Source of the DNA: Minutocellus sp. GHC0000111
Taxonomy: Eukaryota
NCBI GenBank assembly: GCA_977018835.1
Contig: OZ361256.1
Span: forward strand, 7,068,001-7,132,000
Length of the DNA: 64,000 nucleotides
Direction: 5' to 3'
In this document: positions 493 to 51,665 of the stretch, piece after piece
How positions within the stretch are numbered: position 1 is the stretch's first letter
Layout of the letters: each line of letters opens with the position of its first letter
The notes under the pieces: generated by a model
Database searches by the model: none
What the model was told of the DNA's origin: nothing
Seen by the model: only the letters and a program-made list of their open reading frames with translations
Translations under genes and position numbers: made by a program

Positions 493-924
493 CGCTTCTT
501 CTGCTACGATCTACGTTCGAGACGAACTAAAAATGAGCACATGGTCTGGAGCGATCTCACTGGGCTGACTCACTCGCAGAGCAAAACGAGTCAGGCGGGC
601 ACTCGAAAGGATTTGAAAGTGACGTGATGATGACGTATTAGAAACACGACCACACCAGACCAAAAATCCAAGCTCACGGCCAAGATGGAAGTCGGGGCAA
701 GAACCAAGCCATGGTCACCAACTTCTACATATAGTCGAGAGATATTGTGCACCAGAACCAATAAATGTACATTATGTGATGATTTTTTTCGACATTTGCA
801 TTCCTCACCCCGGGAAAAAATACATTTTTGGAAGCACCAAATCAAAATGTAATGAACAGAAATGGACATGCTGCTGTGATAAGTTGTAGCAAATCAATGA
901 CTCCATCGTCTTCATCATTTTCAT

Positions 925-3730
925 CTATGTCGTCCTCAATGTCATCATCTTCGCCGGGAGCATCAATTGGCCAGAGTGGTTCACCATCCTCTTCAGCTTC
1001 TTCCTCGGCAATTTTTGCGAGAGACCAGCCTTTCCCCGTCTGGTCTCCACAAGATTGTTGCCACCGCCACGACTTCTCTTGATGTTGTTATGTGTCACTG
1101 GAAGTTTTCCAAATACATTGAGAAAGGCCTCTTTTGATGCGACATTGGCCCATGCTTTCATCACAGTCTTGTCAAGAGCATTCGCATCATTCTTCTGACC
1201 GCGATGCTCCTTTTCGACGGCCGACTGCAAAGACATCCAGATGCCGAGATCAAGAACATTTGTCTCGGGCGACCGAGGAACCTGCTGGATTATCTCAATC
1301 TTATGTTTGTTTTTGAGGTCCTCGGTGTGCTTCTCAACTGCTTCATTGGACCCATGACCGCCGGCATTGTCCATCACAAGACATGTAACATCAGACTCCT
1401 GAACATTTTGTGGATCCCACTTCACCCAATGATGTGCGTCTCGAATCGCCTTCCCGACCTCATTCATGGTCTCTAACATCCATTTGGAGTCGCAGCTACA
1501 GTCCTTGGTAACCTTATCGCCCCGTTGATACCGCACCCCGAGCTCAAGGTCGTCGATCTCAACCTTCACCTTCTCTCCATTGCCATCAGGAGTGTGTCGC
1601 TTGAGACTCGAGATCTTTTGATTGCAGCCAACAGCGCGGCATGCTTGCGACATTTTGCCTGACCGTCGGATTTATAGTCCTCGCATTGAAGTTCCAATCG
1701 CTCTGTAACAAACTCAGAAAGGCCGTAGATTTCGGCAACGTGGTCGCAAAGATGGCCGGCGGTCATGTCAGCATTCTCGTCGTAAATGTCGCGCCAATCT
1801 TTGTCATTTTTTAGCGCATCGGAGCATCTGGAGAGAAATTCTGATTACGCGTAAGCTTTTCCACCTTCTGCTCCCTGGCGACTCTCTTGATCATGATGCG
1901 CCCATTGAAATCAACGTCTTTGGTTTCATCCTTCATTGGTCGGCCAACAACTCCAAGATGCATAACTTTGACAGGGTGTCTTCTGGAGATCGAATTTTCG
2001 GGCTTGCCTCGGAAGCATGGACAGACACGAGGTAGTTCTTCGTCAGAGAGTGGCAACATCTTGATCTTTCGTCGCCGAGCAGCAGTGTAAAACCACTTTT
2101 CATCAAGACACGCTACAGGAATGTTGGGATCGGTCGTAATGTCCTCCCACTTTTCGATCCAATCAAGTCGCTTCCTGCAATGTTCGGGGGTGAGCCTCGG
2201 CTTCTCGATCGACGACTTCTCCTTGCCGCCTTGCTTTTTCCACCAGCGAAAAAGCTGAAGACGATGGAGACTGCTAATTGTCAGCCTGTCTTCATCTGGA
2301 GTAGCTGATTTTGCGCTCATGCAGTCAGCTAGCTCCTTAAAGGTTGCCATCGCACCCTTCATCCGAGCAGCATGCCGACACAGCTCGCGGAGACATCCTG
2401 GCTCCTTCTCCTCGATCATGTCCGTGTGTGCCTTCCTTCCACGAACCTCCTTTCTGCCGATGGGATTGCTGATGCCATCAGTAAGGCTTTTGTAGAGCTG
2501 GTCTCTCCACTTGTAAAGCTGAGAACCACCGGTTGACTTGGCATGGCCGTGATCGTGCGCAACTTGCTTGCCGACACGCGGCAGTTGCAATTTGTTGCCG
2601 GTCTTCATGCGTGCGAGTTGGGTCGCCGCATCCCCACCAATCCGCGAGAGCCACGGCGCTGAACCGCATTCTTTCATTCGCCTGCTTTTCTTTTCTGATT
2701 GGTGTTGGTTCGGTGACGGTTGCATTGGGACGAGGAGGACGGAGCATGTCATCGTTGGCCATCCGAACAACAAAGTCGAGGCCGAGAGCGACCTTTGCCT
2801 GTTCATCAATGTCACTGGAGGTGGCACAGACAACGGAAGTGTCGGCTCCTCCTAAACCTTCATCATTGGGGGAGGCTGCAGCTGCTTCAGTGGCGGAAGC
2901 ATCACCAGTTCCCTTCAGCATGCTGAGGAGACTTGCTGGCATCCAACCCAGTTTCTTGGCCTCGTCGACTAGTGATTTTGCTCTTGCTTCGCAATGCGCT
3001 GACTGCACCTCCTTTCTGTGAGCTGACAACCTCTCACCTAGCTTAGCAGCTACTAAGACAGTCGAGCGCCCAGAGAACAGAACTTCATCGGGATTTCTTT
3101 TCTCGTGCACCTTCTGTCCCTCCGGTCCAGAGAATTTCGGGTGGTTGTCCTCCTTCTTTTTACGCAACCTGTGAGCACAAACACAAAGCGCCCTGCGTCT
3201 TGTCTTCCCTCTCGGCCGACACGTCGACAAGTGCAACAACTTCAAACTGCAATGCTCCTTGAGATGTTGCTGCACATCCTTCCATTTTTCCTCGTTGTAC
3301 TGTAGCTCATACTTTCCTCCACCGACGGACTTGGAACGCAACAAGTCGGCCTCGATGAAAGCAGCAGGGAGGACGTCTTCCCATTTCTGCCGAGAACCAA
3401 CACAAATGTCATCTTTGCCGCAGCAGGAATCGGGGGTTACTCTCCACCACAGATCCTTACCAGCCCTTCGAATGACATCTGCTGCAAGGAGAAAGGCCAT
3501 GGGGATAGGAGGAGGGGCCGTCCTCTTCTTCGCCGACGACGGTGACGGTTTGGCGGGCGAATTTGACCGTGGCCGCTTCTTCGACGTGTGTTTGCGCTCG
3601 GCGATGGTGTTTTCGGCTCAGCTGCCGCCTTCCTGGATGCCTTGGTGTTGCCTCTCTTGCTCCCTGAGAACGAAGTTCTGCTGCGTTTGTATTTTTTGGG
3701 CGTGGTCTGGTTGGTCGTCGTCATCGTCAC
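925..3730 (-). mobile_element. Decayed Tc1/mariner DNA transposon, DD39D type, frameshifted transposase
   Basis: Fragments 2478-3500, 1811-2833, 925-1653 carry KPRLT, LDEKWFY, MDNAGGHG...PRSPETNVLDLG; 39 residues counted between 2nd and 3rd Asp; termini not identified. Confidence 0.88.
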
Positions 3731-4309
3731 AAAATTTGCGGGTTGCGGTGTGAGAGAGAGGGTGTGCGGGGGACCAAAAAATACATGTGTTCCTGCCAGA
3801 ATCTACTGGACCTGCGAATTCAGTGGATGCTACTGGTCGGTGGCAACCTACTGAATGAGCAGGTCCAGTAGATATCCACGAGTTGAGGAGTATTTGCGTT
3901 CCTCCCGAAGAGAATATCGACTAACAAAACACGTGGGGTGGGAAATGAGAAATGGGTGCAAGAATGACCTTTTTTAGGGGTTATTGGTATACCCTCTACA
4001 AATCCTCTGAAACCGAAAGGTACCTAGGTAAGTGTACGTGCGGTGTGTTTCTTTATCGTCATCGTGACATTATGTGTGGAGAGGCGCCCGCCGGCCGGCC
4101 TCGGGCCAGGCGGCAGCAGCAGCAGCACGCTTGACATGTCAGGCAGTCCCACCAGCGGAGCGTCGTACTTGTAGATTACACACACACACACCTGTCCTGC
4201 ATGTACATTGTATGATGGTTAACGGCGCCGTAATTAGAACCTACATCTACATGTATATACAGTAAGTAAGTAGACCTACTACCGGTATCTTCTACATGTA
4301 GATCTAGAT

Positions 4310-7300
4310 CTAGATATCATACTGCTGCAGTGTGTCATCGAAATCATCCAATTCATGAATGAATTCATGCAATTCATCGTCCACTCGGCCGTCTTTCTTC
4401 TCCTTCGCCCAAGATGCCCTCAGGTTTCTGTCGCGTCGGAGGTAGCAATGGTCCAGACTCAATTGATTTGCCCTTGAAAGTCCATCATGGATCACATCAA
4501 TGCACTCCTCCTTGAGCTTAGTCGCCTGCTGTTCTTCGATCATGTTAGACGTAGTCGGAAACTTCTGACAGAGCCAAAGGAACAGTTCCAGCCGGTGAAA
4601 TTGGGCACAGAGAATGGAGAGTTCCTCGAGTGATCCGGGCTGCCGGGCAAAGAATTCTCGTCGATTTACACCCGTGGTTGCATTGTATGCTAGCTTGGAA
4701 GCAAATTGTTTGAGCAACTTCATTGATCTGTCATCGGTCTCATTCACAGGCGCCATGCAAAAGGAGTACTTGTCCGGTAGAGTCAGCTCAAGATCATCAA
4801 CCCATCGTGCAATGAGGCGCATTTGCGTCATTCGACAAAGTCTGTAATCGCGTCGAAGCCTTGCCATATCGTTAAACTGCAAAAGAATCTTGTGCAGCAC
4901 ATTCTCATCAAAGGTTTCACCATCGTCCATTGTCCCATATTTCTTCATAGAATCGGCAAACAGTTGAAAGTGGGATGCAGTTGGTAAAAGCCCAGCCTTT
5001 GCTATGGGCCTAATTTCCGTGCTCATGCACTGTCGCAAATGCTTCAAATCTGCAGGATCGCGCACAGTAACTTCTCCGTTGGGATATGGTGAGTTTCGTC
5101 GACCTGCTCGACCACTTATTTGCTTCACACTCGAATGGTCTAACTGGATAATCCTCTCGCCATTCGATTTGAACATGCTATTGAAGATAATCCGACGGAT
5201 GGAAAGATTTAACCCCATTCCAATTGCATCAGATGCAACCAAAATATCATATCCAGAGTTAGGGTCATTGAATTGGCGTGCCTGCTGAGTTCTGATCTGT
5301 GGTGGCAAGGATCCGTAAATCACGCAGCATTTGAAAGGTGTTGTTCGCTCGATTTCCCGTTTGATTGCAAATATATCGTTACGAGAGAAGGCTACAATAG
5401 CATCTCCTGGTTGCACAGCTTTGTAGGATCCCTTTTCATTGGAAGCTTTTGCTAGGCTCTCTTCTGAAATGATGAGATCACTGAAACGATCATATTCGTT
5501 GAGCTCAAACTCATCTCCACACGCCGCCGCGAGTCTTTCGACCAGTTCTCTCGCTTCGAGGCCTCCTGCAACGTGTATCTCCTTACAGCGTAGCCCCAAA
5601 AGTGCACGAGTCCATGCCCAACCTCGAAACTCATCCGATATCATCTGAATTTCATCTATAACCACCACATCAAAATCTCGATCGAGCGGGGCGAGTTCTA
5701 CGGTCGCCGCAGAGTGAGTTGCGAATGGGATTTCTTTCTTTTCCTGCCCTGTAAAAAGATTACAGTATACACCCTCTGATGTTAATTGCTCATAAATTTC
5801 GGCAGCAAGGAGACGCAAGGGCCCGACATAAAGGCCTTTATCAGCTTGTTTGAGACGCTGCAGAGCCGTATAGGTCTTACCGCTATTGGTTGGTCCCCCG
5901 TGATAAATAATCTTTCGCCTATCCAAACGAGACCTTGGGTACCAGTCCTGCGGTTTAGTCAGGTCGGTCTGGGCGTCGAGGATTCGATATCGTTCAATTA
6001 GCTGCTCGTGGCGGCCGTGCAAATGGCGAGCAAATGCAGGACGAAATTGTTTCATAATTTCACCGGCAAGTGTAGCGGCAGCTTGATACTGTTCATCGGT
6101 CAATACCGGCTGATATTTCTCTCGCTCTTTCCTGAGCTTCTCCAGCTGACGCTCTGCTCCCTCGACAGCTTGCTTGCCTTGCTTCACGCTTTTTTCATGC
6201 TTTTCAAGGCGGCGATAAAGCTTACGCAATCGGCGGTGGACACGAATTCGTGCTGGGGATAACGCATTCCCGTCTGCGTCGATTGGGGACGATTCGAGTC
6301 CTCTTTCTTCATTGCTAGCACCGCCATCAACGTTTGGGTCTTCCACTGCTGACGATGCTGGCTCTAAACCGAGCAATTTTGTTAGACCATTCTTGACAGA
6401 AAGAAGAGGAGATATCTCAACCGACACTTCCTCTTCTTTGGGGGTCTCTTTTTGCTCCAAGATCGCCTTTGCAGATTCTTCTTTTTCCTTCCGTACAACT
6501 TCTCTCAATTCCTCTTCAACTTCTTCCACCTCTTTCTCCACAGATCTGAAATTATTCTCAAACAGCTTTAGCTTTTGCTTTCGGCTCTCAAAATCTACAA
6601 TCTTGCTTTTTACTCTTTGAAGGTATCGGGCGTAGTCGGATTTTGTCTTTCGATTTTGTCTGTGATGCTTGGTAAATTGGGGGTCAGCAAACCCTGCATC
6701 GCCCAGTCTGTCCAGCAAAATATTTGCAGGGCAAGTATCGGGGGATCCGTCTGTGTCCCTATTCTCAGCGCTCAGCGGAATGGACAACGTTTCGGGAGCA
6801 TCGAGCAATTGCTGCACAAAAGTTGGAATGGAGTCAACGTAGATACCCTTGTATTGTGCTGCTGGACTTCCATCGTCTTTGGAAGACGTAGGATCGACAA
6901 GATGGCCATCGGCATCGGCAGATGATGAAAAATTCAACTCTGCCATTGCCGCCGCAAACAAATCACTCCGTGTGCTGAGAAGATACGGGACGGCATATTT
7001 CGCCACGTTCATCCGGCTTGCAGCCACTGCCCGTTCGGCTCTACGCCGCCTCGCTTCCTCTATTTGCTGGGCCTGCATTTTCTCGTGCAACCGGGCCCGC
7101 TCCTCCGCTTTGATCTGTGTAAGACGCCGTTCGTGGGCCTGCCGAGCCTCATGGACCTGTTGCAGCGTCATTTGCGGATCAGGTGTGAACTTCTCGGGTA
7201 TCACATTATCTTTAGTGTGTTTCGGCGAAGTCAAAGGTGAGGTTACCGACGACGACGACGACGACGACGAAAGGGGGCGTCGTCCGATACGAGTTGCGGG

Positions 7301-9133: not shown

Positions 9134-9350
9134 AGTCGAGAACATGGTTACTACGAGCAGTTTAGAGGATTTAGAAGTGGACCTGAACGGCATACATGTT
9201 CTACGTAGACGTTTATAGGATCGACATAATCAGAAGATGAGAAGCGAAGAAAGTAGGATAAGCAAAGCCAGCCGCAAATAATTACTCATAGTGCCGTTCA
9301 GGTCCACTTCTAAATCCTCTAAACTGCTCGTAGTAACCATATTCTCGACT
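9134..9350. repeat. 59-bp inverted repeat (arms 9134-9192 and 9292-9350)
   Basis: agtcgagaa(c/t)atggttactacgagcag...cctgaacggca present on both strands, one mismatch. Confidence 0.9.
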
Positions 9351-12539: not shown

Positions 12540-14260
12540 ACTTTCAAATCTCCAAGTCTCAAAATCCGGCCGCTACAATGGCCGGCTTTGCGGCGCCTTC
12601 TGACAGGCCGCCGGTGCGTCAACCAGAACAAACACACACAAAAAGGAAGCAAGCAGATCTCTGACCACGATATATGCTAAGTTTGCTGCAAGATTCGTGC
12701 GCAGCGCTTGCCATACGGCGAAGGTTCGCCGCCTCGACTCGTGACTAAACACGAAGTAGCTCCTTCCTCGTCCTCCTCGGCTACTCACAACAGGCGGGTC
12801 ATCTGCCGCGCGCGATTCTCGTTCGGGAGCCGTCGAAGCGAGCAAAATGCACTGCTGAGGTGCGGAAACGATCGAAGGCGAATGCACATGTCACTGGCGC
12901 TGCCAACGTGGAGTGGGCGATCCACACACATCGTCGGCCGCCGCCGTGGAACGCCTACTTTTATGTGCATCATTTGATTTTGATATGCAGCGGCGCAAAG
13001 CACAAGTGTCGGCAAGAGTCTCGCGCTCGACAAAAATGGATTTGTGTCTGCGGCTGTGGCAGATTGTCTTGCGCATATTCGAGGTTGATAGCCGAGGACG
13101 AATGCACCAGCAACAGCAAATGTAGCGTCGTCGCTTTGTGCCTGTTTGCGTGGTTCGGTAGACCGCATCTTGAGGATGACTTGCATGATGGTCTACCGTA
13201 TTCCATCCGACCAAGCATGTTGTACAGCTGAATATCTATTTGTTAATGTGCTTTTTTACATGCTATGTACAGTAGAATAATAAATAATAACAATACATGT
13301 AATAACAGATTCAAAGCAAGTACCAGTAGATCTAGATCTAATATATTTTTACATGCATTCATGAATTCAAATATGCATCTTTATGTATTTACATATCTAA
13401 TCCAATCAAATACTGCGTGCATGGCCATCATGTTTCTCAATTAGTCACTCAGGTACATGTTGAAGGTGCGATCGTTTCTCCATGCTCCGTGTGTCGTTAT
13501 TGCTTCAGCCAGAATTCCAGCAGATCCAGCATCCGTGATGCCACCTTCAGCCTCCTGGAGGATTCCGGCCGCTTCATCGTCGTTCCACTTATCCCCTGTA
13601 GCTCGGCAGAGGCAATTCGAACACAGCATCATCGCCGGCACGTCGTCGATGTTCATGTCGTGCTCCATCTGAGCCTGGCACACAGGATGCAGATTGCTGC
13701 GGCACAAACCGCCACGGCTCTGGCATGTGACGAAGAAAATTACGCGGGGTGATGCAGCGGCCCATGCGGTGGCACGAGCAACTACATGTTCATTTTGAAT
13801 CAAGATGTCTGTTGCGGCGGCGAGCGCAAGATGCCATCCATCGATGTGGGTGTCGAATGAAGGCATCATCGCATCCGCGTCAAAGATCGCTCGACTCGTA
13901 CTCGCGGTTCCAGAGAGTTCTCTATGCATTTTTCAACAGGCTGGGCCGGCGCGATGCGAACTCTGACACCCCGTAAGATGCGTGCCAAAGCAAGCCAAAA
14001 ATGCTAGCAGCTTCCTCGGGTTCGTATCTTGTCCGTTCATGTCCGGCCGGCTTATATATGTTTTCATTTTCAAACATTTTTATGTTCAAAATGGATCGGC
14101 TGACTCGCAGATGCGAACTTGCGAACTGGGTTTGTTGTTGTAATGATGTTGGGCTGTTCCCGGCCAAGTTCGCTGCTCGGCGAAGTTTGTACAAAACCGA
14201 AAAACCGAAGCCGCAATCGCGGCAATCCCGAGTGTGGCGAGTTCCTTGCTTGCGATTGGG
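12540..14260. other. Possible degenerate transposon-derived sequence
   Basis: No clean gene; minus ORF 13441-13929 has a Cys/His cluster (C..C..HPVC...CSNC) in TpA-poor sequence; boundaries approximate. Confidence 0.3.
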
Positions 14261-22931: not shown

Positions 22932-23000
22932 ATGTTCAGGGCCACTTCTGTAACCTCGGAATTGCTCGCAGTATCCATATTCCCTGCTCGAATGACGGGC
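22932..23000. repeat. Diverged third copy of the 9292-9363 repeat unit
   Basis: gttcagggccacttctg...ccatattccctgctcgaatgacg aligns without gaps to the 9.3-kb copy. Confidence 0.8.
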
Positions 23001-29440: not shown

Positions 29441-29932
29441 ACATCAGCTCGCACTCGTTTGATAGCAGTGGTCCTTCCTGCCTGCTTTGCCGAGCGCACG
29501 CCCTGCGGCGCACTCCAACTCGGCCTCGAGCCCACGCCCTGCGGCGCAGTCAAACTCGCAGAGTTGCGCCACCAAAGCGCATCACAAACTCGCGAGGAGT
29601 AGATTTACGTGCTCCCCAGCACGGTGATCGACATGGCCTATCTCCCGCCCTGTAGCGGTCGGTCGGAGTTCCATTGCGGCATCTCAACGACACGGTAATG
29701 CGGTGCATCAAAGTGCCAATAAAAGACATCGGAACGAACACACAAAAGATGCGCAAAAGATGTGCTCACACAAGATGCGATGGGTCGGATGAACTAATTC
29801 GAATCAGCCGGGACCAACCAGTGACGTACCAGTCGACATGCACCAGCCAAAGCAAGATGTAATCCGTTCCAACACATCCAATCACCGGCACAAAGCAAAG
29901 ATATCGCACTACTCTCTCTAATTCGATAACTA
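29441..29932. repeat. Direct repeat copy 1 (about 0.49 kb), LTR-like; may extend left to about 29125
   Basis: Near-identical to 34300-34792 (two short indels, five substitutions). Confidence 0.95.
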
Positions 29933-29935
29933 ATC

Positions 29936-32900
29936 TGTTGATACCGTGGGATACGTACGTACGTATACATACGTACGGTACGTACGGTGATCAGACCACT
30001 GACTCAGTGCCCTCTCCTGACCGTTGATCCATGGGCCAACGACATCTCCGATGGCCCATTTTTCATCTACGTAGGTCCTATTAACCTCTACTAGCTATAT
30101 CTATCTAGCTTAGCTTTAGGACCTCTTAGCAGACCTATGTGACACATCTTTTCCACCCGTGCTCGCCCCATTTCGGTTCGCACCTCACCGGTTTGTCTTG
30201 GTTGGGTTCTCACTCGTCACGCAAGAAAAACCGACACATCTTCAATCGGCCAAAACTACCGTTTCTTTCGACAATATTGGAACGACGATCCAATCCCTTC
30301 CCCGAAAGTCCTGACCAGATCGACCCATCCAATCGATCACACTTCTCTGGATCGAACCTTCTGTCGATCACACGTCTCGCAGCAACACCGCCGTGCTGCC
30401 TGTCTTCGCTGACTGAAACACCAGCATGAATCCCGACGCAGTTTTTGGCCAACCTCTCGGCGCAGCGCCGATTCTCCCCACCAAGTTAATCACACGTGTG
30501 AATGACCCAGGACAACCTCCCCAACGCGAGCGTGTTGCCAAAGCGCTCAAGGAACTTCAACAAGCGGCGGTCAGCATTCCAGCAGGGGGTGCAACATGTG
30601 ACCACAACCTCGGCCATTTGGGCCTCGTCGTCAGCGATGCCGAATGCACCACCAAAAGCAACGGCCGACCACATGTGCCTCCGGCAAATCCTGGCCCCAG
30701 CCCCACCATTCCCGCCGTGGCCAATCTAGACCAACGCGATCGTGCAATCCGGGGACATCACATCGAAAAGGGCCACTGCAACTTGTGCGAGCAAGTCAAC
30801 ACGGCGCTCAAGAGTCTCCTCGACTCGATCGACGCCGTCTACATCAATCATCTCGAAGATGACATGCTCGGTTTCCAGCCAGTCACCATCCGCCAAATCA
30901 TCGACAGCGTTACCGATCGCTACTTGAAATTCAACGAGACTCAGAAGGAGGAGTTAGAGAAGCAGCTCGAGAAGCAGCACGACGGGGGACCCATCGACAC
31001 CCATATCGCCACATTCAACAAAGTCTTCAAGGCGTTTGAAACGGCCGGCGAACCCTTCACCAACAAGCAAAAGGTCTCCAAGTTCTGCCGCTCCGTGCGC
31101 AGGTTCTCATTGGCAAAGAAGGCATGCGAGGACTGGGACGACAGACCGGAGGCCGAACGCACGTGGGCCAACGTGCAGTCGGACTTCCGCGATTGGCATG
31201 ACAAGAAGATGGCCAACACCACCACCGAAGCGGCAGGATGTCATGGCGCGAATTTGGCCTCATCGGCCTCGGACGATCCATTTCTTTCTCGAGCCGATCT
31301 CCTTTTGGCTGATGCCACCGAAGCCCTCAAGACCAACCAAGCCATGATGGCGAACCTCGCCAAAAAGAGCAACGAGAAGGACGACACCATTGCCAAACTT
31401 CGCCAAGAAACAGCTTCACTCAAGGCCGAGAACCGCGTTCTGCGTGAGGGACGCAACCACACTGGTGGCAGTGGAGGCTACCGCGGCGGTGGCCAGCAGA
31501 ACGGCGCCGGCCACTTCCCAGGCCAAGGTCCTAACCTCAACCGCCAGGAGAAGAGGGAACTGCAGTCGATCCTCCCCAGAGGCCATTGTTGCCACACGTG
31601 CGGCTATTCGTCCAACCACCCCAGCTTTGAATGCACTTGCAAAGGGCCCAACCACGTTGATGACGCCACCAAGCACAATCCTTGCGGTGGCAGCTCGCGT
31701 CGTAACTGAGCGGGAGGGACGGTGGATGTTAATCAGCACAAAATAGAGGACAGCATGTCTGAATCCACCTCCTCCCCGCCTTCGTTAGCTTTCTTACGTC
31801 AAAAAGCAAACCTCCAACTCAAGAGCCAATCGTCCTCGCAGCAGATGCTGGAACGACGGGACATTTTGTCCAGAAGCCCCAACACCTGTCGTGCGATGGC
31901 CCTGTTTTCAACGTCCAACAGACAGCAATTCCTATCAGCGTCACCCTTCCGGACAATGGCACAATGACGAACACCCACGAGGCCACGCTTCGCCTCCCTG
32001 GGGTTTCCCCATCGGCTAGCAAGGCCTGTGTTTTCAATGACATGGCATCATCGCTCCTATCGATTGGGCAGCTGTGTGACGATGGATGCATTGCCACTTT
32101 CGACAAGGATTCGGTAGTCATCGCCAAGGACAATGCCGTCATTTTGCAAGGTAAACGAGACCCCTCAACGAAATTGTGGATGGCAGATCTTAATTGCTCG
32201 CCCACCATGTCGCCGCTCCCCGGCCCCAACGTCATCCAACATGCTGCCAACGCCGCAATTGCCCAGGAGACGGTTCCGGAACGTGTAGCCTTTTTGCATT
32301 GGTGCGCTGGCAGTCCTCAGCTATCTACCTGGTGCAAAGCAATCGATGCGGGATTTTATAGATCTTGGCCAGGCCTCACATCAAAGCTTGTACGTAAGCA
32401 CATGCCACAGTCGACACCGATGATTAAAGGTCACTTAGACCAGCAGCGCAAGAACATCAGGTCGACCAAGCCCAAACGGTCGATGGCTACGCCAAAATCT
32501 CTCCCTGGGGTGGACGAAACCGAGCAGGATCTCCACCCGGCACAACACCAACAGCGCACCAACTGTGTCTTTGCTGATTGTCATGACATAACGGGCCAGA
32601 TCTTCTCAGATCAGCCCGGCCGTTTCTTGGCATCGTCTATTTCTGGCCACCAGTGCACAATGGTCGTCTGTGACTGTGACTCCAACAGCATCTTGGCCGA
32701 ACCAATGAAAAGCCGATCGGGAACGGAAATGCGCCGAGCGTGCCAAACTATTTTCGAACACCTCTCCAAGCGAGGATTTCGCCCAAAATTGCAACGATTG
32801 GATGATGAAGTGAGTCGAGAGCTGAAGGAGTTCATGGAAGAAAAGGATGTAGATTTTCAATTGACCCCAACGCACTCCCACCGCCGAAATGCGGCCGAAC

Positions 32901-34299
32901 GAGCCATTCGAACCTTTAAGAATCATTTCATTGCGATTCTCTGTGGTGCCGATCCAGACTTTCCCCTCATCTTGTGGGACAAATTGCTGGAGCAGGCGGT
33001 AGTGACCCTCAATTTCCTGAGAGCGTCCCGAGTCAACCCTCGACTTTCAGCGCACGAGCAACTCAATGGCGGCTTTGATTTCAATCGCACGCCTCTGGGC
33101 CCCCTCGGATGCAAGGTCATCTTTCACGAGATGCCCTCGGCACGCGGCTCTTGGTCCCCGCATGGCGTTGATGGGCACTGTGTCGGTCCAGCCATGGAGC
33201 ACTGCCGGTGTTACAAGGTTTGGATTGAGGAAACTCGGGCGGAACGCACTGGTAACACACTCGTCTGGCTCCCCAAAATGATTCCGGTGCCCAAAACGTC
33301 GTCGGCCGATGCAGCAACAGTCGCAGCTCATGAACTCCTGCACGCTCTACAGAATCCACATCCAGCGGCACCCCTTGCTCCCCTTCGAGACGAGCATCGT
33401 CAAGCTTTAGAAAAGCTCTCCGAGATTTTCAACAGCGTGACCCCAGCAGAATCTGCCACCTCCGCCTCTGATGAGACGATGCAGACAACCGCAGCTCCGA
33501 GGGTGCTGGAGAACGATGACGACTCCCAACGATTCCGCCTCGGTGCCATCGTCGCCAAAGTGTTTGGAGATCGCAATTGCAAGGGAAGAGTCGTTGCATT
33601 TGACAAGAAGCATGAGTGCTGCAAAATCAAACACGAGGACGACGACGTAGAAGAGATGAACGAGACTGAAGCAGGCCGTCACCTTGTCTCCAACCCCAAC
33701 GCTCCGTTACCTCAGCCCCAGCAACCTCCGAGGGTGGCAAAATCCTCCACACATGATGCAGCCACCACTAAAAGCCGTGGATCACGTCGATCCAACGCGC
33801 CACCTCGCTCGTCAGTTTCTTCCAACTGCTGCAATCCTTTGGCTGCAGCAGACGAGCCCAACGGCGACGATGATGATAATCATGACGACGATGCAACCGT
33901 CGTAACATCCAATCAAAGTTCCAATGCCCCCACCTCCCGTCGGCAACGTAAACGCAAGTCTCCAACGATCGACACCACTCCAACATTGCCAGCTCCAGCA
34001 AAATCGACAAGCAAGTCCAAACCATCGACCGCCAAACCACCTCGACGACGATCATGCCGTCAGCGAGGGCACATTCCACATCGGAACCCTCCCCCACGGC
34101 CATCATCTCGTCGTAGTGCCCACCACGTGGCCAACATGGCAGCTTTCTCGCCTTTACCAAACCTCCAACACTTTGCTAACGCCGTCGTCCATCCCGACAC
34201 TGGTGCAATGCTTGAATGCCGCGACCTCCTCAAAACGAACATGAGGGACCAATTCATTCAAGCAAACATCGATGAAATTGGACGGCTAACAGACGGCCG
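29936..34299 (+). mobile_element. Ty1/copia (CoDi-like) LTR retrotransposon, truncated before RT
   Basis: TGTTGATACC LTR-like start; gag 30426-31709 (GHLGLV, C-terminal C..C...H....C); protease ADAGTTGHF about 31841; integrase SDQPGRF, RLDDE, HRRNAAERAIRTFKNH; ends at ANAVVHPDTG..EIGRL; no RT/RNase H. Confidence 0.92.
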
Positions 34300-34792
34300 A
34301 CATCAGCTCGCACTCGTTTGATAGCAGTGGTCCTTCCTGCCTGCTTTGCCGAGCGCACGCCCTGCGGCGCACTCCAACTCGGCCTCGAGCCCACGCCCTG
34401 CGGCGCAGTCAAACTCGGCATTTATTACTCGCAGAGTTGCGCCACCAAAGCGCATCACAAACTCGCGAGGAGTAGATTTACGTGCTCCCCAGCACGGTGA
34501 TCGACATGGCCTATCTCCCGCCCTGTAGCGGTCGGTCGGAGTTCCATTGCGGCATCTCAACGACACGGTGATGCGGTGCATCAAAGTGCCAATAAAAGAC
34601 ATCGGAACGAACACAAAAGATGTGCTCACACAAGATGCGATGGGTCGGATGAACTAATTCGAATCAGCCGGGACCAACCAGTGACGTACCAGTCGACATG
34701 CACCAGCCAAAGCAAGATGTAATCCGTTCCAACACATCCAATCACCGGCACAAAGCAAAGATGTCGTGCTGCTCTCTCTAATTCGATAACTA
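34300..34792. repeat. Direct repeat copy 2
   Basis: Matches 29441-29932. Confidence 0.95.
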
Positions 34793-36231
34793 TTAACGAG
34801 ACTTCGGGAAGATTCCTGACGGACGTGACAAGACAGCATTCTCGGAGGAGCAACTGGAGCCTCATACAGATTCTCTGCTGGGGTACTTTCAATTACTCGG
34901 GGAACAAAGACATTGTTGGGGTTGGTGGCATCAGCAGGAGCTGCTTTAGCCGTCATCGCAGCGGTAGTCTTGGTCTTTTTCCTCACGATATGTTCCTCCC
35001 TATCCTCCTTTTCAGCACGACTGTCATTGTATGCTGATAGACTGCCACTGCTGCGCTTGCCCTGCAGCTTCTTCGCTGCCTCTCTCTGCTCTCTTCTCTT
35101 CTCTCTCAACTCTTGCTTCAGTATCATCTTCCTCATCTCGCATGAAGTTATGGCATACGACACCATCTGCGTCTTGGCGACGGGGGCCTCCACATCGTTG
35201 TTCTCATCTTGATCATCATAAGACATAGCCTGAATAATCATGGTCCGGGCAGTTTCGAAGGATTCAGTGCCAAGGTCCATGGCAAGCTGGGCTGATTCCT
35301 TGCCAAGCTCGAGGGCGGCGTGGGCGCCCTTCTTGGCGATCGGTGCCGCTACTTTGGCAGATTCCTTGCCAAGCTCGAGGGCGGCGTGGGCGCCCTTCTT
35401 GGCGATCGGTGCCGCTACTTTGGCAGATTCCTTGCCAAGCTCGAGGGCGGCGTGGGCGCCCTTCTTGGCGATCGGTGCCGCTACTTTGGCAGATTCCTTG
35501 CCAAGCTCGAGGGCGGCGTGGGCGCCCTTCTTGGCGATCGGCACGGAAAATGCTACGGCCTTCTCACTTGCTTTGTAGGTGGCGTGGGCGCCCTTCTTGG
35601 CAAGGGGGACAGCTACTTTGGCCGATTCCTTTCCAAGTTCAATTGCGACATGTGCGCCTTTTTCGCCGGCCTTCATAGCGACTTGCGCGCCCTTCTTGGC
35701 GATAGGGACGGAAAACGCCACAGCCTTTTCGGTGGCCTTGATGGTGACATCCTTGGTCTTTTGGACGGGTTCGCTCTGGGCCAGAGGGATGAAGACATTG
35801 TCGTTCGCGGCCGTTATCGGCATCATGGCAGCATCCGCCACGCATTTGGCTGCCGGAGCAACTGCCTTCTTGGTCTTTTTGACGGTATCGAAGCTGCCGA
35901 TGTGATTGGCGACGGGTCGGACGAAATTGGTGTTGCCAGCCCGCATGACATTTTCCTTGTCGAGTGCATTCTCGAAACGGTGAGCGGCAGCACCAACGTG
36001 GTCGGACGCAACCTTGAGGACGGCCCGGGTCTTCTGAATCCCGGTATCGGCATTTTTGGCGACGCCACCGAATTTTTGTGTCGATGGGGCCATGTAGACA
36101 TTGGCGCTGGCCGACGAGAGGCCACAAGGCATCGGCTTCGTGTCGGTATAGGCCGAGGCAGATGAGCGACGTGCCTTGTGCGGCCGGATGTTGGACTTCT
36201 TGGCGGTCGGTACCTCGTGGAGCAGCGTCAT
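34654..36231 (-). CDS. Ala/Lys-rich protein with 22-aa tandem repeats; C-terminus runs into the direct repeat
   Basis: Likely ATG 36231 (MTLLHEV); repeats KESAKVAAPIAKKGAHAALELG; last ~46 codons lie within 34654-34792. Confidence 0.7.
   Translation of the reverse strand: MTLLHEVPTAKKSNIRPHKARRSSASAYTDTKPMPCGLSSASANVYMAPSTQKFGGVAKNADTGIQKTRAVLKVASDHVGAAAHRFENALDKENVMRAGNTNFVRPVANHIGSFDTVKKTKKAVAPAAKCVADAAMMPITAANDNVFIPLAQSEPVQKTKDVTIKATEKAVAFSVPIAKKGAQVAMKAGEKGAHVAIELGKESAKVAVPLAKKGAHATYKASEKAVAFSVPIAKKGAHAALELGKESAKVAAPIAKKGAHAALELGKESAKVAAPIAKKGAHAALELGKESAKVAAPIAKKGAHAALELGKESAQLAMDLGTESFETARTMIIQAMSYDDQDENNDVEAPVAKTQMVSYAITSCEMRKMILKQELREKRREQREAAKKLQGKRSSGSLSAYNDSRAEKEDREEHIVRKKTKTTAAMTAKAAPADATNPNNVFVPRVIESTPAENLYEAPVAPPRMLSCHVRQESSRSLVNSYRIRESSTTSLLCAGDWMCWNGLHLALAGACRLVRHWLVPADSN
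35294..35541. repeat. 66-bp coding tandem repeat, about 3.8 near-perfect copies plus degenerate copies to about 35730
   Basis: gattccttgccaagctcgagggcggcgtggg... recurs at 35294, 35360, 35426, 35492. Confidence 0.95.
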
Positions 36232-36956: not shown

Positions 36957-37050
36957 TAGATCTAGACTACTAGCTACCGGTAGGAATACGTACGTGTACT
37001 AGGATTCCTACCGGTACCACCGGTATATCAATCTCACATGGTGAGACCAT

Positions 37051-39060
37051 TCAATCGATCTCCATGTCATTGATGGCTCTGTTGAGGTCATATGGCAGAT
37101 TCTCGTCATTCGCCTCGTCGGTTTTGCTGCCGCCGTTTCCATTACTAGTACCGGTATTTTTCTCCAATCCCTCCTTCTTGAGCCTCCAAATCCTTCCACA
37201 CTCCTTCATGACCTCGGGCTGAGTTACGAACGAACCACGCTCTGCCACGAGCCTTTCTCGAACTGCCTTGGAATTTTGTTGAACAAACAGACTGAATCCA
37301 GTTGGAGCGCGTTTCTTCTTTGGCGTGTGACCAACAGTCTCGGTATCATTCTTGCTGCCCGGAACCTCAATCTCCATAAGTCTACCCTTGCAAGATCCAC
37401 AGCAGTGCTTGTTCGGATCGACACTACGGCTGTGTCTTTTGATGATGGATCCACACTCGGTATTTTGGCACTTCCAGGCAAACTTGAAGCGAATGACATA
37501 GTCGTGAGTCGTCGTTACCTCCACATCTCGAATCCTTCGCATGGAAAGGTTGGCCCATTTCTTAAACACCTTGCCATGCGGTGGTTTGTGCACACCGTCG
37601 ACCAGCCAACCTGCCGCGTGGCACATTTCGTGCAAGAGTGATGCCCTCAGTCTCTCGAGGTTGTCCAAAATCTTGGTACTAAGCTCAATTGTCGCGATGC
37701 GACGCATACTATCCGATGTGCCGATGCGTTTCAGTCGGGTGAGGCCGGCGGTCGTTTTCAACCGTTTTGACCACACCACTTCCACCGAAGAAAGTGATCC
37801 ATTGAACACCTTGGTATTGAACTCGGCAAAAGTCGATCTTGTATACTGCTCTCGCTTTCTAGCAAAGGTGGTGCGAGAAACGTCTTGGTACGATGTGACC
37901 GACTTTTTGTTCGTAGATTGCTTAGGCTTCGGCTTGGTCTTTTGTGTCTTTGGAGGTTGCGTCGGGGTTTTTTTCCTGCCCTTTGGAGCGGCATCGGCTG
38001 TATTAGCCTTGCTAATCTTCTTCTTTGTTGGACTGACAATCTCAACATCGTCATCACTGCTGCTACTGCCGTCACTACTGCTAGCGATACCATCCGAGAC
38101 CACAAAAGAATCCTCGAGATGCTCTGATGAGAAATCATCACCGCCAATGCTCTCACTTGTGGCGGAATTGATGTCTTCCTCTTCGTCGTCATCGCTGAGG
38201 ATAATGGCATCATCATCATCATCCTGTTCCTCCTCTTCCTTCGGCTTTGTGGCCTTGGACGTAGTACTTGTGGTAGGTGTAGCGAAGCTGCCAGCTGGCC
38301 CACTCCTCGCCTTATTGTCATAATCGGTATCACCATCCCCGTCACCATCGATCCACTCCTCCTCGATTGTGGTATCATTGTTGAATGAATCATCGTCGGA
38401 GGATGACAGGATGCTGTCGGAACGACGGCGCCAACCTGACGCTGACGCTATGTTCCGTCGAGCATTGCGACGCGGACGACGTGGCATGGCCACGGAAGAC
38501 GAGGAGGAAGCGGACGACACCGACACCGACACCGATGTTGATTTGTTGTCGTCGTTTAGATCGTCCGCGGGCTCGCCGTCATCATTGCTGCGAGTACTCG
38601 GCGAGAAAGATGTGTCCACAACCACCACATCGTCGTCGTCATCTTGATCGTCGTCGGGGTCGTCCGTCCGTTTGTTGTCGTTGGCTGTATCGTTGGTGAT
38701 GGTGCCAGTTTCGTCCTCGAATATCGGCTCGGCACACTCACCGACGCATCCCAGCACGGCACAACTTTCGTCGTGGTTCTGCGGCACTCGGAGTGAAATG
38801 GCCTTGCCACCGAGGATGGCCGGAAGCAGCGAGGGTATATTGGACGGCAACGTCTGTGATGGACCTGGGCTACAATTGCCGTTGCTCTTCTCCTCCTGGT
38901 TCGTCGCTGAAGGAGCTGCTGAGGAAGGAGCCGTACCTGCTGCTGCCGACCCGGCCTTCTTCTTATCGGCGGCCGCCAGAGCCCTCCATAACGTCCCGTA
39001 CTCGGAGAGATGGCCCTCGAAGCGCTCTCGAACGCTGCTGCCACTTGCTTGGTTCGTCAT
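37051..39060 (-). CDS. GCNA: GCNA/ACRC: acidic disordered region + SprT metalloprotease + Zn finger + HMG box
   Basis: WSKRLKTTAG, IELSTKI, LLHEMCH, PHGKVFKKW, C..C..RHSRS..C..C, FSLFVQQN...VMKECGRIW. Confidence 0.9.
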   Translation of the reverse strand: MTNQASGSSVRERFEGHLSEYGTLWRALAAADKKKAGSAAAGTAPSSAAPSATNQEEKSNGNCSPGPSQTLPSNIPSLLPAILGGKAISLRVPQNHDESCAVLGCVGECAEPIFEDETGTITNDTANDNKRTDDPDDDQDDDDDVVVVDTSFSPSTRSNDDGEPADDLNDDNKSTSVSVSVSSASSSSSVAMPRRPRRNARRNIASASGWRRRSDSILSSSDDDSFNNDTTIEEEWIDGDGDGDTDYDNKARSGPAGSFATPTTSTTSKATKPKEEEEQDDDDDAIILSDDDEEEDINSATSESIGGDDFSSEHLEDSFVVSDGIASSSDGSSSSDDDVEIVSPTKKKISKANTADAAPKGRKKTPTQPPKTQKTKPKPKQSTNKKSVTSYQDVSRTTFARKREQYTRSTFAEFNTKVFNGSLSSVEVVWSKRLKTTAGLTRLKRIGTSDSMRRIATIELSTKILDNLERLRASLLHEMCHAAGWLVDGVHKPPHGKVFKKWANLSMRRIRDVEVTTTHDYVIRFKFAWKCQNTECGSIIKRHSRSVDPNKHCCGSCKGRLMEIEVPGSKNDTETVGHTPKKKRAPTGFSLFVQQNSKAVRERLVAERGSFVTQPEVMKECGRIWRLKKEGLEKNTGTSNGNGGSKTDEANDENLPYDLNRAINDMEID

Positions 39061-39499
39061 GGTGGCAGCCGCCGAAAATAAAACGATCGAAAATAAAAAA
39101 TGATGCCGATGCGATGCGCGATGGATCTGGGCCGTCCGTCCGTCGTCACCGCGCCGCATCGCATCGCCGCATCGCTCGCTTGTGTCGCTCATATTTTCCG
39201 TTCAAAATTTCATCCGACCGTTTTAGCCCCGCGCCCGCCAAGGATTCACGGATGCATGAGATGTATGTTCTGCGAATGAACCAAGCATTTGCACCATTTG
39301 TTGCCTTCTATTAATAGTCGAACGCTGAGCCGTCTAGTCTAGCTAGCAACGTCTGGAAATTTGAGAGTCATCAACTGAATCAATCGACTCTTGGAAGTGG
39401 CGTCGCATCGGGTCACAAAGCAGACGCTTCAAACGCCGTGTGGAGAAGTGAAAATAAGTGAAAGTAGCCACAAGCAAGCGAAATAAGCCAAGTCCATCA

Positions 39500-40690
39500 A
39501 TGAGAATGCTATTCAGATCGGCCATCTTGATGGCCACTGGTGCTATAAGTTCGGTCGGTGGTGACGATATCGATCCACCACTACTAGCACTTGGTGCTGC
39601 TGATAAAGATGCCGCTAATGGCGCGATGAATCACCAAACTCACACCCTGACCGGCTTTCGTCTGAGTGATTTGGATGCCGAGTTCAAATCTCGTGGTATG
39701 GGCCGTCGACTCTTGCTGCCCGATCAAGATGGCAAAAACGTGGGCGATGATCAGTACATATCGACGATCGACGCCTTGGAGGGCGTCGACGATCTTCAGA
39801 CTGACTTCTTTGCTGCATTTGGGCGCAACTTCACTGAGGAGGAACTGAACGATGCCCTCGACGATGCCTATGTCCGTGCCACGGAAAACGACGGGGCCAA
39901 TCTTCGATTTGAATTCGACGAAGATCTTCTCCTGGAATTGGAGCGTCGACGAGCGTTGAAAGAGCAGGGTGGTGACGAAAACGCCATCGTCTTGGATCTG
40001 AATCCTACTACTTCTACTTTTGCATCTGATTCCCCAAGGAAAAGAAGTACCGGTAGGAGGCTGCAATCAGCGATCATTCGAGGTGGGACGGGAATGCTGG
40101 TGACACTGCAATCGCCTGGCTTTCCGGGAAATCCTGGACGTCGATCGGGCATCCATGGGCTGTTCTGGTGCGCCTCTCTTCGTGAAACGCGTCGAGCCGA
40201 CATTGAAACTCCCCTCAATCAGCGACTGACTCTCAAGAATTGCAAGACTGCCGACATACGTCAGATCGAGTGGACATACACGACGGATCTGGAACTGCTG
40301 GTATCACGCGTGGGAACATTTTTTCATTCCTTCTGCGCACGGACCAAGGATGGGCGGCAGGGACGTCTTCGTGAAAAGATTCGGATGAATCAGTGCGGTA
40401 CCAACATCAATAATACGCAGTCTTGGGAGCTCAATACCAACTACCAGTGGATATCATCTGCCGATGCTGGACTTTGTGTGACAACCAATCGTGGACAGAA
40501 GGGCCGGGGCAATCTCAAGCTTCGAACGTGTGTGGAATCGGACGATGTGGTGGAGAAATTCGATGCCGGACAGTTGTGGACTCTGTGTCGGACGGAGGGT
40601 ACCTGTGCTGTTGGGACTGGTTCCTTCGATAGAAGATTGCCGCTGCAATGCGACATCACGCAGAACTGCCGGCCGAGTGGGCGGAGATAG
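39500..40690 (+). CDS. Secreted protein with ricin-B (beta-trefoil) lectin-like C-terminus
   Basis: Signal peptide, RRL processing-like motifs, repeated Cys pairs with QSW/QLW motifs. Confidence 0.6.
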   Translation: MRMLFRSAILMATGAISSVGGDDIDPPLLALGAADKDAANGAMNHQTHTLTGFRLSDLDAEFKSRGMGRRLLLPDQDGKNVGDDQYISTIDALEGVDDLQTDFFAAFGRNFTEEELNDALDDAYVRATENDGANLRFEFDEDLLLELERRRALKEQGGDENAIVLDLNPTTSTFASDSPRKRSTGRRLQSAIIRGGTGMLVTLQSPGFPGNPGRRSGIHGLFWCASLRETRRADIETPLNQRLTLKNCKTADIRQIEWTYTTDLELLVSRVGTFFHSFCARTKDGRQGRLREKIRMNQCGTNINNTQSWELNTNYQWISSADAGLCVTTNRGQKGRGNLKLRTCVESDDVVEKFDAGQLWTLCRTEGTCAVGTGSFDRRLPLQCDITQNCRPSGRR

Positions 40691-41020
40691 GATGGCATAC
40701 GTGTACATGGGTGGTGTGAATCTTTCTGTGCTGGCAGATAGAGATCTCTAGCTTTCTAGCTCTACATGTAGCTAGGCTGCAAGACGCACGGCCCAGTAGA
40801 TCTAGCGCAGGTACCGGTAATAGATCTACGTAGCTAGTCTACGTAGATCTCATCTACAACGTAAATAATTTTCCCGCTTACATGTACCTAGGCACACCTA
40901 CACGTTGGGTACCGGTACCGGTAGATCTAAATCTACACCACCAACAAAAACACCGTAATACCAAGGTCCATCTCTCTCCCACACACGCCGACACCGCGCG
41001 AGAGGACCAAAAAGCAAAAT

Positions 41021-41100
41021 TGACATCTGCAGGATTCGAACCTGCGCCAATTAAGACCACGGCCTTAACGTGGCTCCTTAGACCGCTCGGACAAGATGTC
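41021..41100 (-). tRNA. tRNA-Leu(AAG)
   Basis: GACATCT/AGATGTC acceptor stem, CCACG-TTAAGGC-CGTGG anticodon arm, GCAGG-TTCGAAT-CCTGC T arm, extended variable region. Confidence 0.95.
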
Positions 41101-41274
41101 GTTGTTCAGCTATATGGTTATCACGCAAAAATATGTCTGCTTTTTATGGAAAAACTCCTGCGCGCGTTTCACCGTGCGACCATATCGAACTTGCAAACTT
41201 GACACTACTTGTGTGAGTAGCCATCTCTTTTCTCCGCCGCATCAATAATCGTCCCCCCCCCCCCAATCTCTCTC

Positions 41275-42274
41275 ATGTCATTCACGGAAATCACTGAAAG
41301 TACTCGCACTCCCAATAGGAGGAAGAGGAGTGCTCACGCCGATGCCCAACATTCGCCGGCCAAGTCTTCTTCGAACAAGAAATCGGCCCTGCCGACAACT
41401 TCATCACACGTACGTTGAAGCTCAAGCGCTTTGCTTCGTTTGTTCTCGATGGATTACTCCGACTTATCTTGTTCTCACCATCCCCTCTTCAGCAATTTAA
41501 CTTCGACCCTCATCCCCCACTGTCACACTCACTATTATCGTAGGTCTTCACAAGCTAATGGAGAAATCTAGCACAGAACATCCACAAGTTGCATCGTGGG
41601 GGACAGATGGCAGTGCCATCGTCATCCACGACCAGGTCCGATTCGTTGCCTTATTCGCCGAACCAGAGTACTTTCGGCCCTGCACGGCGACGTGGGGTGC
41701 CATTCATAAGCAGTTGAATCAGTATGGTTTCGAGGAAGTGCGCACTCCCCGAGCCATTGCCGATCTGATTGCTTTTCCCGGCGATGCCCATACCGACACT
41801 CGTCCACGCAATGCAGATGATATTCCAGATACTGATGATGGAGAGAAGCCAAATGCACCAAACGATGATGTAGATACCAACAGCATACTCAATCTTCCCC
41901 CTGGAATCCGAGTCTTTCGATTCTATCGCGGTGCATTCCGGAAGGGCGATGAAAAGTCAGCCAGGGACATACTTCGATGGCCAGGAGCGGATGGGAGCAC
42001 TCGCGTCAATGATCAGAACGAAGTGAACAAGGCGGCGCTAGAAACGCTCAAGGCGAAGAACGATGAGCTGCAGAACAAGGTGGATCGATTGGAGGGTGTG
42101 GTCAACGAGCTTCGTACGGAAATGTCCAGCAACTTTGATGAATTGAAGAAGATGCTTGGTGGTGCCGCTGGCGGAAGAGTGAATGATGATGCTCTTGGTA
42201 GATCTACTACTCTTCCTCTGCCATCCCATATTGATGATCATGGCTTTTCTTCCCTGGATGATTTGTTAGCTTAG
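41275..42274 (+). CDS. Heat-shock-factor-type transcription factor (divergent); intron 41410-41543
   Basis: Spliced NFITRLHKLME, VASWGTDGSAIVIHD, KQLNQYGF, coiled coil; exon 1 needs one extra base near 41388 to link to ATG 41275. Confidence 0.8.
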
Positions 42275-42815
42275 AAGCTTCTAGCTAGGCACTGATGATT
42301 TTGTAGTAAATGTGTAATGTTGTTGAATGAGAATGAAATGCCGAGGTGACTGATGAGACCGACCTTGCCAAGCAAACAAACAAAAGAAGCTGTCAAAAAA
42401 CAAACAGTCAACTGGCTTTTAAAATGTATTTAGGTATCCTATAGGATTCCTACCGTCCCTACATAACATATTCTTGTAGAGGAAATCCCACGCTCGGGCG
42501 ATTTTAAGTAGAATCAGAATTCATGAATCGAATCAGTTTTTGCAACCGGAAATCGCGCAAAAGCTTCGCTTCAATCAGGATTGATTGTGCTTCCGGATTC
42601 CGGCGTTCCGGCCATACACCCCGTAACCAACGTAAAGGAACTTCCACCAAACCGTGCCGCTCACGATCACATGCAAGAAGATTTTGAGGCAAAGCGCCCA
42701 CAAGAGAAGACGAGAAAGAATAATAACACGGAATCGAATCAATCAAAAGCAATAACCCTTTCACCTTGACCGCCCGGGTGGTTCAGTTTGCACCGAGAGA
42801 GACGTGTGGGACCGA

Positions 42816-51494: not shown

Positions 51495-51665
51495 ACCGCA
51501 CGGACGGATTGCGAACGCACTACGTACGTACTAGCTAGTACATGTAGTAGTACATGTGATGACGCTCTGTCCGTCGTTCGCTGCGCTGCAAGCCCATCCA
51601 CCCGAATTTCTCTCGCCTGCTGTTTCATTTCCAACCAAAGCAACCAATCAAACCAAATACCCACC

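What the first reader, a model, noticed from the sequence alone, without database searches (positions are those of the whole stretch)
925..3730. Same TpA signature in a DNA transposon argues against RNA editing
Seen: the DD39D mariner reads VACLDEKWFY, VKVMHLG, VTCLVMDNAG, IRDAHHWV, EKHTEDLKNKHKI, LRELCRHA, each giving plausible Tyr (or Ile ATA) on restoring TA. Known: cut-and-paste elements have no RNA intermediate. Inference: mutation happens on chromosomal DNA rather than through ADAR-like editing before reverse transcription.
Basis: partly seen in the sequence, partly recalled or inferred. Interest (0 to 1): 0.75.

Follow-up and report, generated by a model that had tools for sequence, protein, structure and literature searches.

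The report
TA-erasing mutation in diatom DNA transposon
A dead, many-copy jumping gene in a diatom-type genome has had its TA steps changed to TG or CA equally on both DNA strands while neighbouring host genes are spared, which points to a likely chromosome-level anti-transposon mutator, so far described in print only in one unrelated alga, rather than RNA editing.

Summary
Confirmed. The minus-strand DD39D transposase (884-3724) has lost TpA on both strands. Of 40 listed differences from public-run contigs (65 in all), 30 are TA lost in this copy (18 to TG, 12 to CA) and 5 are the opposite change at a TA in other copies; in host genes only 4 of 40 listed differences are of this type. In 15 sibling copies, ancestral Tyr became Cys 45 and His 43 times. 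The two directions are interleaved within one copy, which one edited RNA strand cannot give. The mutated A is followed by a pyrimidine in 27 of 30 cases and RTAY sites are hit most. A nearby copia shows the same. So mutation on chromosomal DNA is well supported; the enzyme is not identified. This matches the TpA hypermutation of Bigelowiella natans (bioRxiv 10.64898/2026.01.13.699255), and this scan has already noted it in other diatom genomes (74 notes), including DNA transposons and the TAY bias. Unexplained extra: 13 tandem duplications of 2-4 nt in this copy. Terminal repeats were not found.

The parts
884..3724 (-). Dead DD39D (IS630-Tc1-mariner group) transposase gene, broken by small indels; the former TAA stop now reads CAA
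   Evidence: Frameshift-aware alignment to P0040, P0053 and P0002; ATG at 3724 and CAA at 886-884; contigs of all four runs read A at 886
2087..2116 (-). First catalytic Asp motif VACLDEKWFY (Tyr to Cys)
1243..1389 (-). Second and third catalytic Asp (MDNAG ... NVLD), 39 residues apart; VTCLV from an inferred VIYLM
857..3829 (.). Span of 30 read-supported TA losses: 18 TA>TG and 12 TA>CA on the + strand, interleaved
869..3936 (.). 13 tandem micro-duplications of 2-4 nt (869, 1019, 1060, 1637, 1986, 2271, 2563, 3050, 3237, 3360, 3420, 3586, 3935) and three deletions (7, 9, 11 nt)
   Evidence: tables 4 and 8; the 9-nt deletion is inferred from contig gap counts
700..4000 (.). Multicopy extent covered by run contigs; true ends not defined
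   Evidence: Summed contig depth 4e4-4e5 in X1 here against 1e2-7e2 on host genes; no terminal inverted repeat above shuffles
3801..3873 (.). 24-bp inverted repeat (92%) upstream of the ATG; role not tested
30417..34299 (+). Comparison element: truncated copia gag-pol with the same signature
   Evidence: 25 of 26 Tyr sites changed, 16 Cys and 9 His; TA o/e 0.20 and 0.29
29441..29947 (+). About 506-bp direct repeat (second copy from 34300) flanking the copia; all 5 of 5 substitutions between the copies fit TA loss

Best explanation
This transposon copy has lost TA steps to TG or CA on both strands while host genes have not, most likely because a host mutator acts on inserted repeats in chromosomal DNA, likely by deaminating the A of TpA so that it is copied as G. 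Shown: the spectrum, strand symmetry, restriction to mobile elements, and a flank preference (mutated A followed by C or T; RTAY sites hit most). Inferred: that each copy is hit after insertion, one site at a time, on either strand. Not shown: the enzyme. I put about 0.9 on a DNA-level targeted process, and within that about 0.5 on an adenine deaminase (ADAT2/3-like, as the Bigelowiella preprint proposes). How repeats are recognised (silent chromatin or small RNA) is untested.
For: 30 TA losses among about 100 ancestral TA steps in 700-4000 (70 remain), against at most 26 other places of X1's 56 over about 3,100 bases: at least about 35-fold. Strands 18:12 (p 0.36), or 28:23 with 21 protein-inferred sites. 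Sibling copies Tyr>Cys 45, Tyr>His 43, no other Tyr change when polarised by outgroups. Host control: 4 of 40 listed rows TA-type against 35 of 40 (p 1e-12); transversions 35 of 104 against 3 of 56 in run X1. Context: 27 of 30 mutated A followed by a pyrimidine against 55 of 112 kept orientations (p 5e-5); purine-preceded Tyr sites changed in 88 of 156 cases against 10 of 80 (mariner), and 68 of 126 against 14 of 99 (copia); RTAY is 11 of 105 surviving TA in the two elements against 212 of 572 in eight host ORFs. Only 2 of 33 A>G-type rows are at AA, although 467 AA/TT steps exist. No strand clustering. De novo TpA>TpG/CpA on chromosomal DNA was seen in mutation-accumulation lines of B. natans.
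Against: No enzyme, lesion or de novo event was observed here. Sequence cannot tell a modified A from a modified T on the opposite strand. Sibling copies share descent, so their counts are not independent events. Against one reference (P0053) the raw tally is skewed, His 95 and Cys 50, because five His sites are fixed in the family; the symmetric figures exclude these. Only 40 of 65 and 40 of 240 rows were visible. The 13 micro-duplications are not explained by deamination. Element ends were not found. The laid runs are other strains or samples (104 host differences in 20 kb for X1), and library type is not on record for X1 and X2.
Confidence: 0.85

Rival explanations
1. The lesion is on the thymine: a modified T in 5'-RTA-3' (for example an oxidised thymine placed on silent repeats) pairs with G and gives T>C. 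Still DNA-level and repeat-targeted, but a different chemistry.
For: A followed by a pyrimidine on one strand is the same as T preceded by a purine on the other (27 of 30), so every count fits equally well. That some protists carry modified thymines is recalled, from no call.
Against: No direct evidence for such a base here; strict transition-only spectrum is typical of deamination (recalled).
Confidence: 0.2
2. Error-prone repair synthesis by a Y-family polymerase (Pol eta or iota type) rewrites patches of repeats, inserting G opposite T and slipping to give short duplications.
For: Pol eta gives A-to-G at WA and T-to-C at TW on either strand (PMC2213188, passages). This copy has 16 small indels against at most 19 non-TA places, whereas host rows are 53 against 216 (p 0.002).
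Against: AA is nearly untouched (2 of 33, with 467 AA/TT steps); transversions are 3 of 56; no same-strand clusters. Host indels are mostly tandem duplications too and are thinned by selection in coding DNA. The window's copia has heavier TA loss but no private in-frame insertion in 759 aligned residues.
Confidence: 0.15
3. ADAR-like A-to-I editing of element RNA, written back by reverse transcription or RNA-templated repair.
For: ADARs prefer a 5' U or A neighbour (PMC3113232, passages). Terminal repeats were not found, so the route of copying is not proven. Contigs of RNA runs cover the element.
Against: Both strands are interleaved in one copy and in non-coding flanks; 44:44 symmetry; ADAR also edits after A and hADAR2 favours a 3' G, whereas here AA is spared and TAG is 3 of 30. 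All five listed T>C rows seen in the RNA contigs also occur in run X2, guessed to be DNA. Two copies of a chromosomal direct repeat differ only at TA.
Confidence: 0.03
4. Assembly or base-calling artefact in high-copy repeats.
For: The element is high-copy and the assembly method is unknown; two duplications hold both alleles side by side (1060, 2271), as a consensus error might.
Against: TA, TG and CA forms of the same site all stand in deep contigs of independent runs (1384/1385, 1959/1960, 2427/2428), including Illumina RNA runs; sibling proteins on other contigs carry their own Cys/His patterns and duplications; host ORFs over 1,000 aa are open.
Confidence: 0.03
5. Selection or ordinary drift against TpA, or fungal-type RIP read backwards.
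For: TpA is low across the window (0.58).
Against: Changes destroy Tyr conserved down to about 40% identity homologues and the stop codon; outgroups fix the direction as TA lost; host polymorphism is not TA-biased.
Confidence: 0.02

Closest known systems
TpA hypermutation of integrated NCLDV and virophage DNA in Bigelowiella natans (Mettrop et al., bioRxiv 10.64898/2026.01.13.699255; main text parts 1-3 of 5 read, plus a term search)
   Same: A>G and T>C transitions on TpA, both strands, nuclear DNA, confined to foreign sequence; that paper also finds DDE endonuclease and RT domains enriched among TpA-poor genes.
   Different: Different supergroup (diatom-type stramenopile; the words diatom and stramenopile do not occur in that text). 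Here the target is a multicopy DNA transposon and a copia, not single-copy viral inserts. The RTAY/TAY flank preference is not mentioned in its main text (pyrimidine, flanking, trinucleotide: 0 hits); its supplement was not available. Here the evidence is comparative, not de novo.
Repeat-induced point mutation (RIP) of ascomycetes (abstract seen in listing, PMC2621366)
   Same: Dinucleotide-specific transitions on both strands of repeats that inactivate them.
   Different: Opposite direction: RIP is C:G>T:A mainly at CpA and creates TpA; here TpA is removed, stops are lost and GC rises. Link to a sexual stage or homology sensing not tested.
Pol eta A:T phase of antibody somatic hypermutation (PMC2213188, passages)
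   Same: A>G after T, mirrored on both strands.
   Different: Pol eta targets WA (AA as well as TA); here AA is nearly spared and C:G mutation is absent.
PlantMar / DD39D family of Tc1/mariner (PMC7325037, passages)
   Same: DD39D catalytic spacing; length within 2-6 kb; stramenopile members (oomycetes) are known.
   Different: No short terminal inverted repeats found; about 950-aa protein with relatives mostly from unnamed marine records and one Chaetoceros protein; no tree was built.

Membership tests
TpA hypermutation (Bigelowiella type) | Nearly all changes are A>G or T>C at TpA | tested here: met
   35 of 40 listed rows at TA; transversions 3 of 56 in X1
TpA hypermutation (Bigelowiella type) | Both strands affected | tested here: met
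   18:12; 45:43; 44:44
TpA hypermutation (Bigelowiella type) | Confined to foreign or mobile DNA | tested here: met
   Host region 4 of 40 listed rows of 240; TA o/e and RTAY share
TpA hypermutation (Bigelowiella type) | De novo rate about 1000-fold above background, active in only some lines | not testable with these tools
   Only a comparative lower bound of about 35-fold
TpA hypermutation (Bigelowiella type) | Same enzyme (ADAT2/3 proposed, unproven) | not testable with these tools
   No genome held; no enzyme is established in B. natans either
Fungal RIP | C:G>T:A transitions at CpA that create TpA | tested here: not met
   Outgroups show TA as ancestral and lost
ADAR-edited retroelements | A>G on one (sense) strand per copy | tested here: not met
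   Interleaved both-strand changes
PlantMar / DD39D | DD39D catalytic spacing | tested here: met
   39 residues; weak Pfam DDE_3 hit, E 0.009, below cut-off
PlantMar / DD39D | Short terminal inverted repeats and TA target duplication | tested here: inconclusive
   No inverted match above shuffled controls in 500-900 against 3740-4320; ends undefined
PlantMar / DD39D | Falls in the PlantMar clade in a transposase tree | not tested
   No reference PlantMar sequences were fetched

The most novel reading that the evidence does not exclude
Diatoms run a mirror-image RIP: a chromatin-guided DNA editor that recognises the palindromic RTAY step in any inserted element, DNA transposon or retroelement, and whose repair also leaves 2-4 nt tandem duplications, so that one pathway both recodes and frameshifts mobile DNA. 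It would be shared with Rhizaria and so be ancient in SAR or twice evolved.
Probability: 0.2. Interest if true: 0.85.

Novelty: new member of a known kind. Interest (0 to 1): 0.55.

Why it matters
A natural, targeted A:T>G:C mutator of double-stranded chromosomal DNA is described in only one preprint that I found, with no enzyme. This element is a good test substrate: hundreds of partly mutated copies (275 cluster members) let rates be read per site and strand, exclude an RNA route, and give a flank fingerprint (RTAY) that candidate enzymes must match. If general in diatoms, it affects how their transposons are dated and annotated (stops vanish and Tyr becomes Cys/His, so dead elements look like open genes), and the enzyme would be of interest as a natural adenine base editor. 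Within this scan the result is confirmatory rather than first.

Tried and rejected
No whole genome was available, so copies were studied as proteins and run contigs. A metagenome scan for relatives gave 1 locus of 388 candidates, covering only the C-terminal end; it was not used for counts. Terminal inverted repeats: none above shuffles. LTR-pair test: the 506-bp repeat round the copia lacks clear TG...CA ends, so I call it a direct repeat, not an LTR pair. Strand-coordinated clusters: not seen. Link of duplications to TA: by eye 4-5 of 13 touch an ancestral TA, not convincing; the 'both alleles side by side' pattern can come from duplication followed by ordinary TA loss. An ApT (6mA-type) target: 16 of 30 have a 3' T but 11 have C, so not ApT-specific. 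Transcription: RNA-run contigs cover the element, but DNA carry-over of a high-copy element cannot be excluded, so no claim is made. Literature searches for a diatom or stramenopile report listed only the Bigelowiella preprint and fungal RIP papers; subscription journals are mostly absent from the library. A recalled report in bdelloid rotifers was not found. Rows dropped before counts: 25 of 65 and 200 of 240 substitution rows and 32 of 44 and 41 of 53 indel rows were not shown; 15 of 275 and 15 of 113 cluster members were listed; frameshifted protein ends were masked by an identity filter; five family-fixed His sites were excluded from the 44:44 figure.

Full report
Setting. The window is eukaryotic and intron-containing (GT..AG joints in RNA contigs). 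Named homologues of a host Fpg glycosylase gene are diatoms, as are the named relatives of the two mobile elements, so I treat the host as a diatom; the species was not sought. No whole genome is held.

The element. A transposase gene runs on the minus strand from ATG 3724 to a former stop at 886-884 that now reads CAA. The second and third Asp are 39 residues apart. The closest cluster has 275 members, the 15 listed mostly on megabase contigs, and summed contig depth is hundreds of times that of host genes: a young, high-copy family. Whether those contigs are the window's own assembly is not known. Terminal inverted repeats were not found.

Observation. All six motifs are present, and homologues have Tyr at those columns in most rows (counts in the observation check; one column has His in 5 of 13). 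Laying contigs of four public runs on 700-4000 gave 65 differing places, of which 40 were listed. Thirty are TA in the runs and TG (18) or CA (12) in the window, five are the opposite change at a TA in other copies, five are something else. Background contexts make this far beyond chance (p 1.7e-7 and 2.1e-6). With 70 TA left, at least 30 of about 100 TA steps were lost, against at most 26 other places in about 3,100 bases.

Strand test. In this copy the ratio is 18:12, or 28:23 with protein-inferred sites, and the two kinds are interleaved at random (14 runs against 15.4). In 15 sibling proteins, outgroup-polarised Tyr changes are 45 to Cys and 43 to His and none to anything else. Against a single reference the raw tally is His 95, Cys 50, because five sites are His in every copy; without these, purine-preceded sites give 44:44. 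The five fixed His sites suggest that the founder of the burst had already been hit and stayed active (inference). Copies share descent, so these are not independent events.

Control. On 37001-57000, which is mostly host genes, the same runs give a balanced spectrum: in X1 A>G 19, T>C 17, G>A 19, C>T 14 and 35 transversions of 104. Four of the 40 listed rows (of 240) are TA-type, against 35 of 40 in the element (p 1e-12). TA o/e is 0.31 in the element, 0.20-0.29 in the copia and 0.48-0.67 in eight host ORFs.

Same signature next door. The truncated copia at 30417-34299 has 25 of 26 Tyr sites changed (16 Cys, 9 His); its 15 siblings give 36:32 at purine-preceded sites. The two copies of a 506-bp direct repeat around it differ by five substitutions, all fitting TA loss.

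Flank preference. The mutated A is followed by a pyrimidine in 27 of 30 read-supported cases (one of the other three has an uncertain flank), against 55 of 112 kept orientations. Site-wise, RTAY is 17 of 30 mutated and 9 of 56 kept, and YTAR 0 of 30 and 10 of 56. In the window's copia, pyrimidine-preceded Tyr went to Cys 10 times and His never, purine-preceded 6 and 9 (p 0.003), as the rule predicts; mariner siblings give only 6:4 at such sites, which is not significant. I found this before consulting the scan's notes, which record a similar TAY bias in other genomes.

Mechanism. One edited RNA strand yields A>G on that strand only, so interleaved two-strand changes, opposite outcomes at one site in different copies, and changes in flanks point to DNA. 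ADARs accept a 5' A about as well as U and hADAR2 favours a 3' G (PMC3113232, abstract and passages); here AA is nearly spared and TAG is rare. The best reading is a repeat-targeted DNA mutator that hits single TpA steps on either strand after insertion. Adenine deamination is the likeliest chemistry, as proposed without proof for B. natans, but a modified thymine fits the counts equally, and a Pol eta-like polymerase (PMC2213188, passages) fits less well because AA and transversions are missing.

Unexplained. This copy has 13 tandem duplications of 2-4 nt and three deletions of 7-11 nt; the gap totals of five long RNA-run contigs match them exactly (table 8). Sibling proteins carry private in-frame insertions too, 10 in 7,144 residues for the mariner and 5 in 11,412 for the copia. 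Host polymorphic indels are also mostly tandem duplications, so this may be the genome's ordinary slippage, unpurged in dead DNA; the ratio to non-TA changes is higher in the element (16:19 or more against 53:216), but coding constraint confounds that.

What is known. The pattern matches the TpA hypermutation seen de novo in B. natans (bioRxiv 10.64898/2026.01.13.699255; parts 1-3 of 5 read; supplements not available and may hold flank data). It is the reverse of fungal RIP. My searches listed no report for diatoms. This scan has already noted it on other DNA: 74 notes hold the search words, including a DNA transposon case; these are unchecked AI notes and are not counted as support. By spacing the element resembles PlantMar/DD39D (PMC7325037, passages); membership is not established.

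Verdict. Observation confirmed, interpretation supported. A new member of a recently described kind, with unusually clean strand and control data. Interest 0.55.

Noticed in passing
window 869-3936: 13 tandem duplications of 2-4 nt and three short deletions in one transposon copy; two deletions appear to start or end at an ancestral TA.
   Followed up: partly
window 3107, 2374, 1643, 1596, 1434 (minus strand): Five Tyr sites are His in every sibling copy that covers them and none is fixed as Cys, which suggests a once-hit but still active founder.
   Followed up: partly
P0001, P0053, P0057: Near-intact relatives (about 88% identical) are themselves polymorphic Tyr/His and Tyr/Cys at two sites, so the process likely also acts in a related lineage.
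   Followed up: no
window 29441-29947 and 34300-34806: A 506-bp direct repeat flanks a copia gag-pol that is cut off at the start of RT; no TG...CA ends seen; the copies also differ by 13- and 14-nt indels.
   Followed up: partly
window 33540-33680: The copia pol carries a Tudor-like domain (PF21743) between integrase and RT, also in its close relatives.
   Followed up: no
window 59651-60661: Mutator-like transposase remnant (weak PF20700 hit) with TA o/e 0.37: probably a third affected element.
   Followed up: no
window 13400-14000: Short TA-poor stretch (o/e 0.35) with no Pfam hit; possibly another relic.
   Followed up: no
window 9134-9350 and 22934-23000: MITE-like element with 59-bp inverted repeats (98%) and a related fragment elsewhere; its two arms differ at one TA/TG site.
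   Followed up: no
window 3801-3873: Hairpin with 24-bp arms just upstream of the transposase ATG.
   Followed up: no
runs: The element occurs in several sponge and marine metagenome and metatranscriptome runs as well as organism-labelled runs; only four were laid.
   Followed up: no
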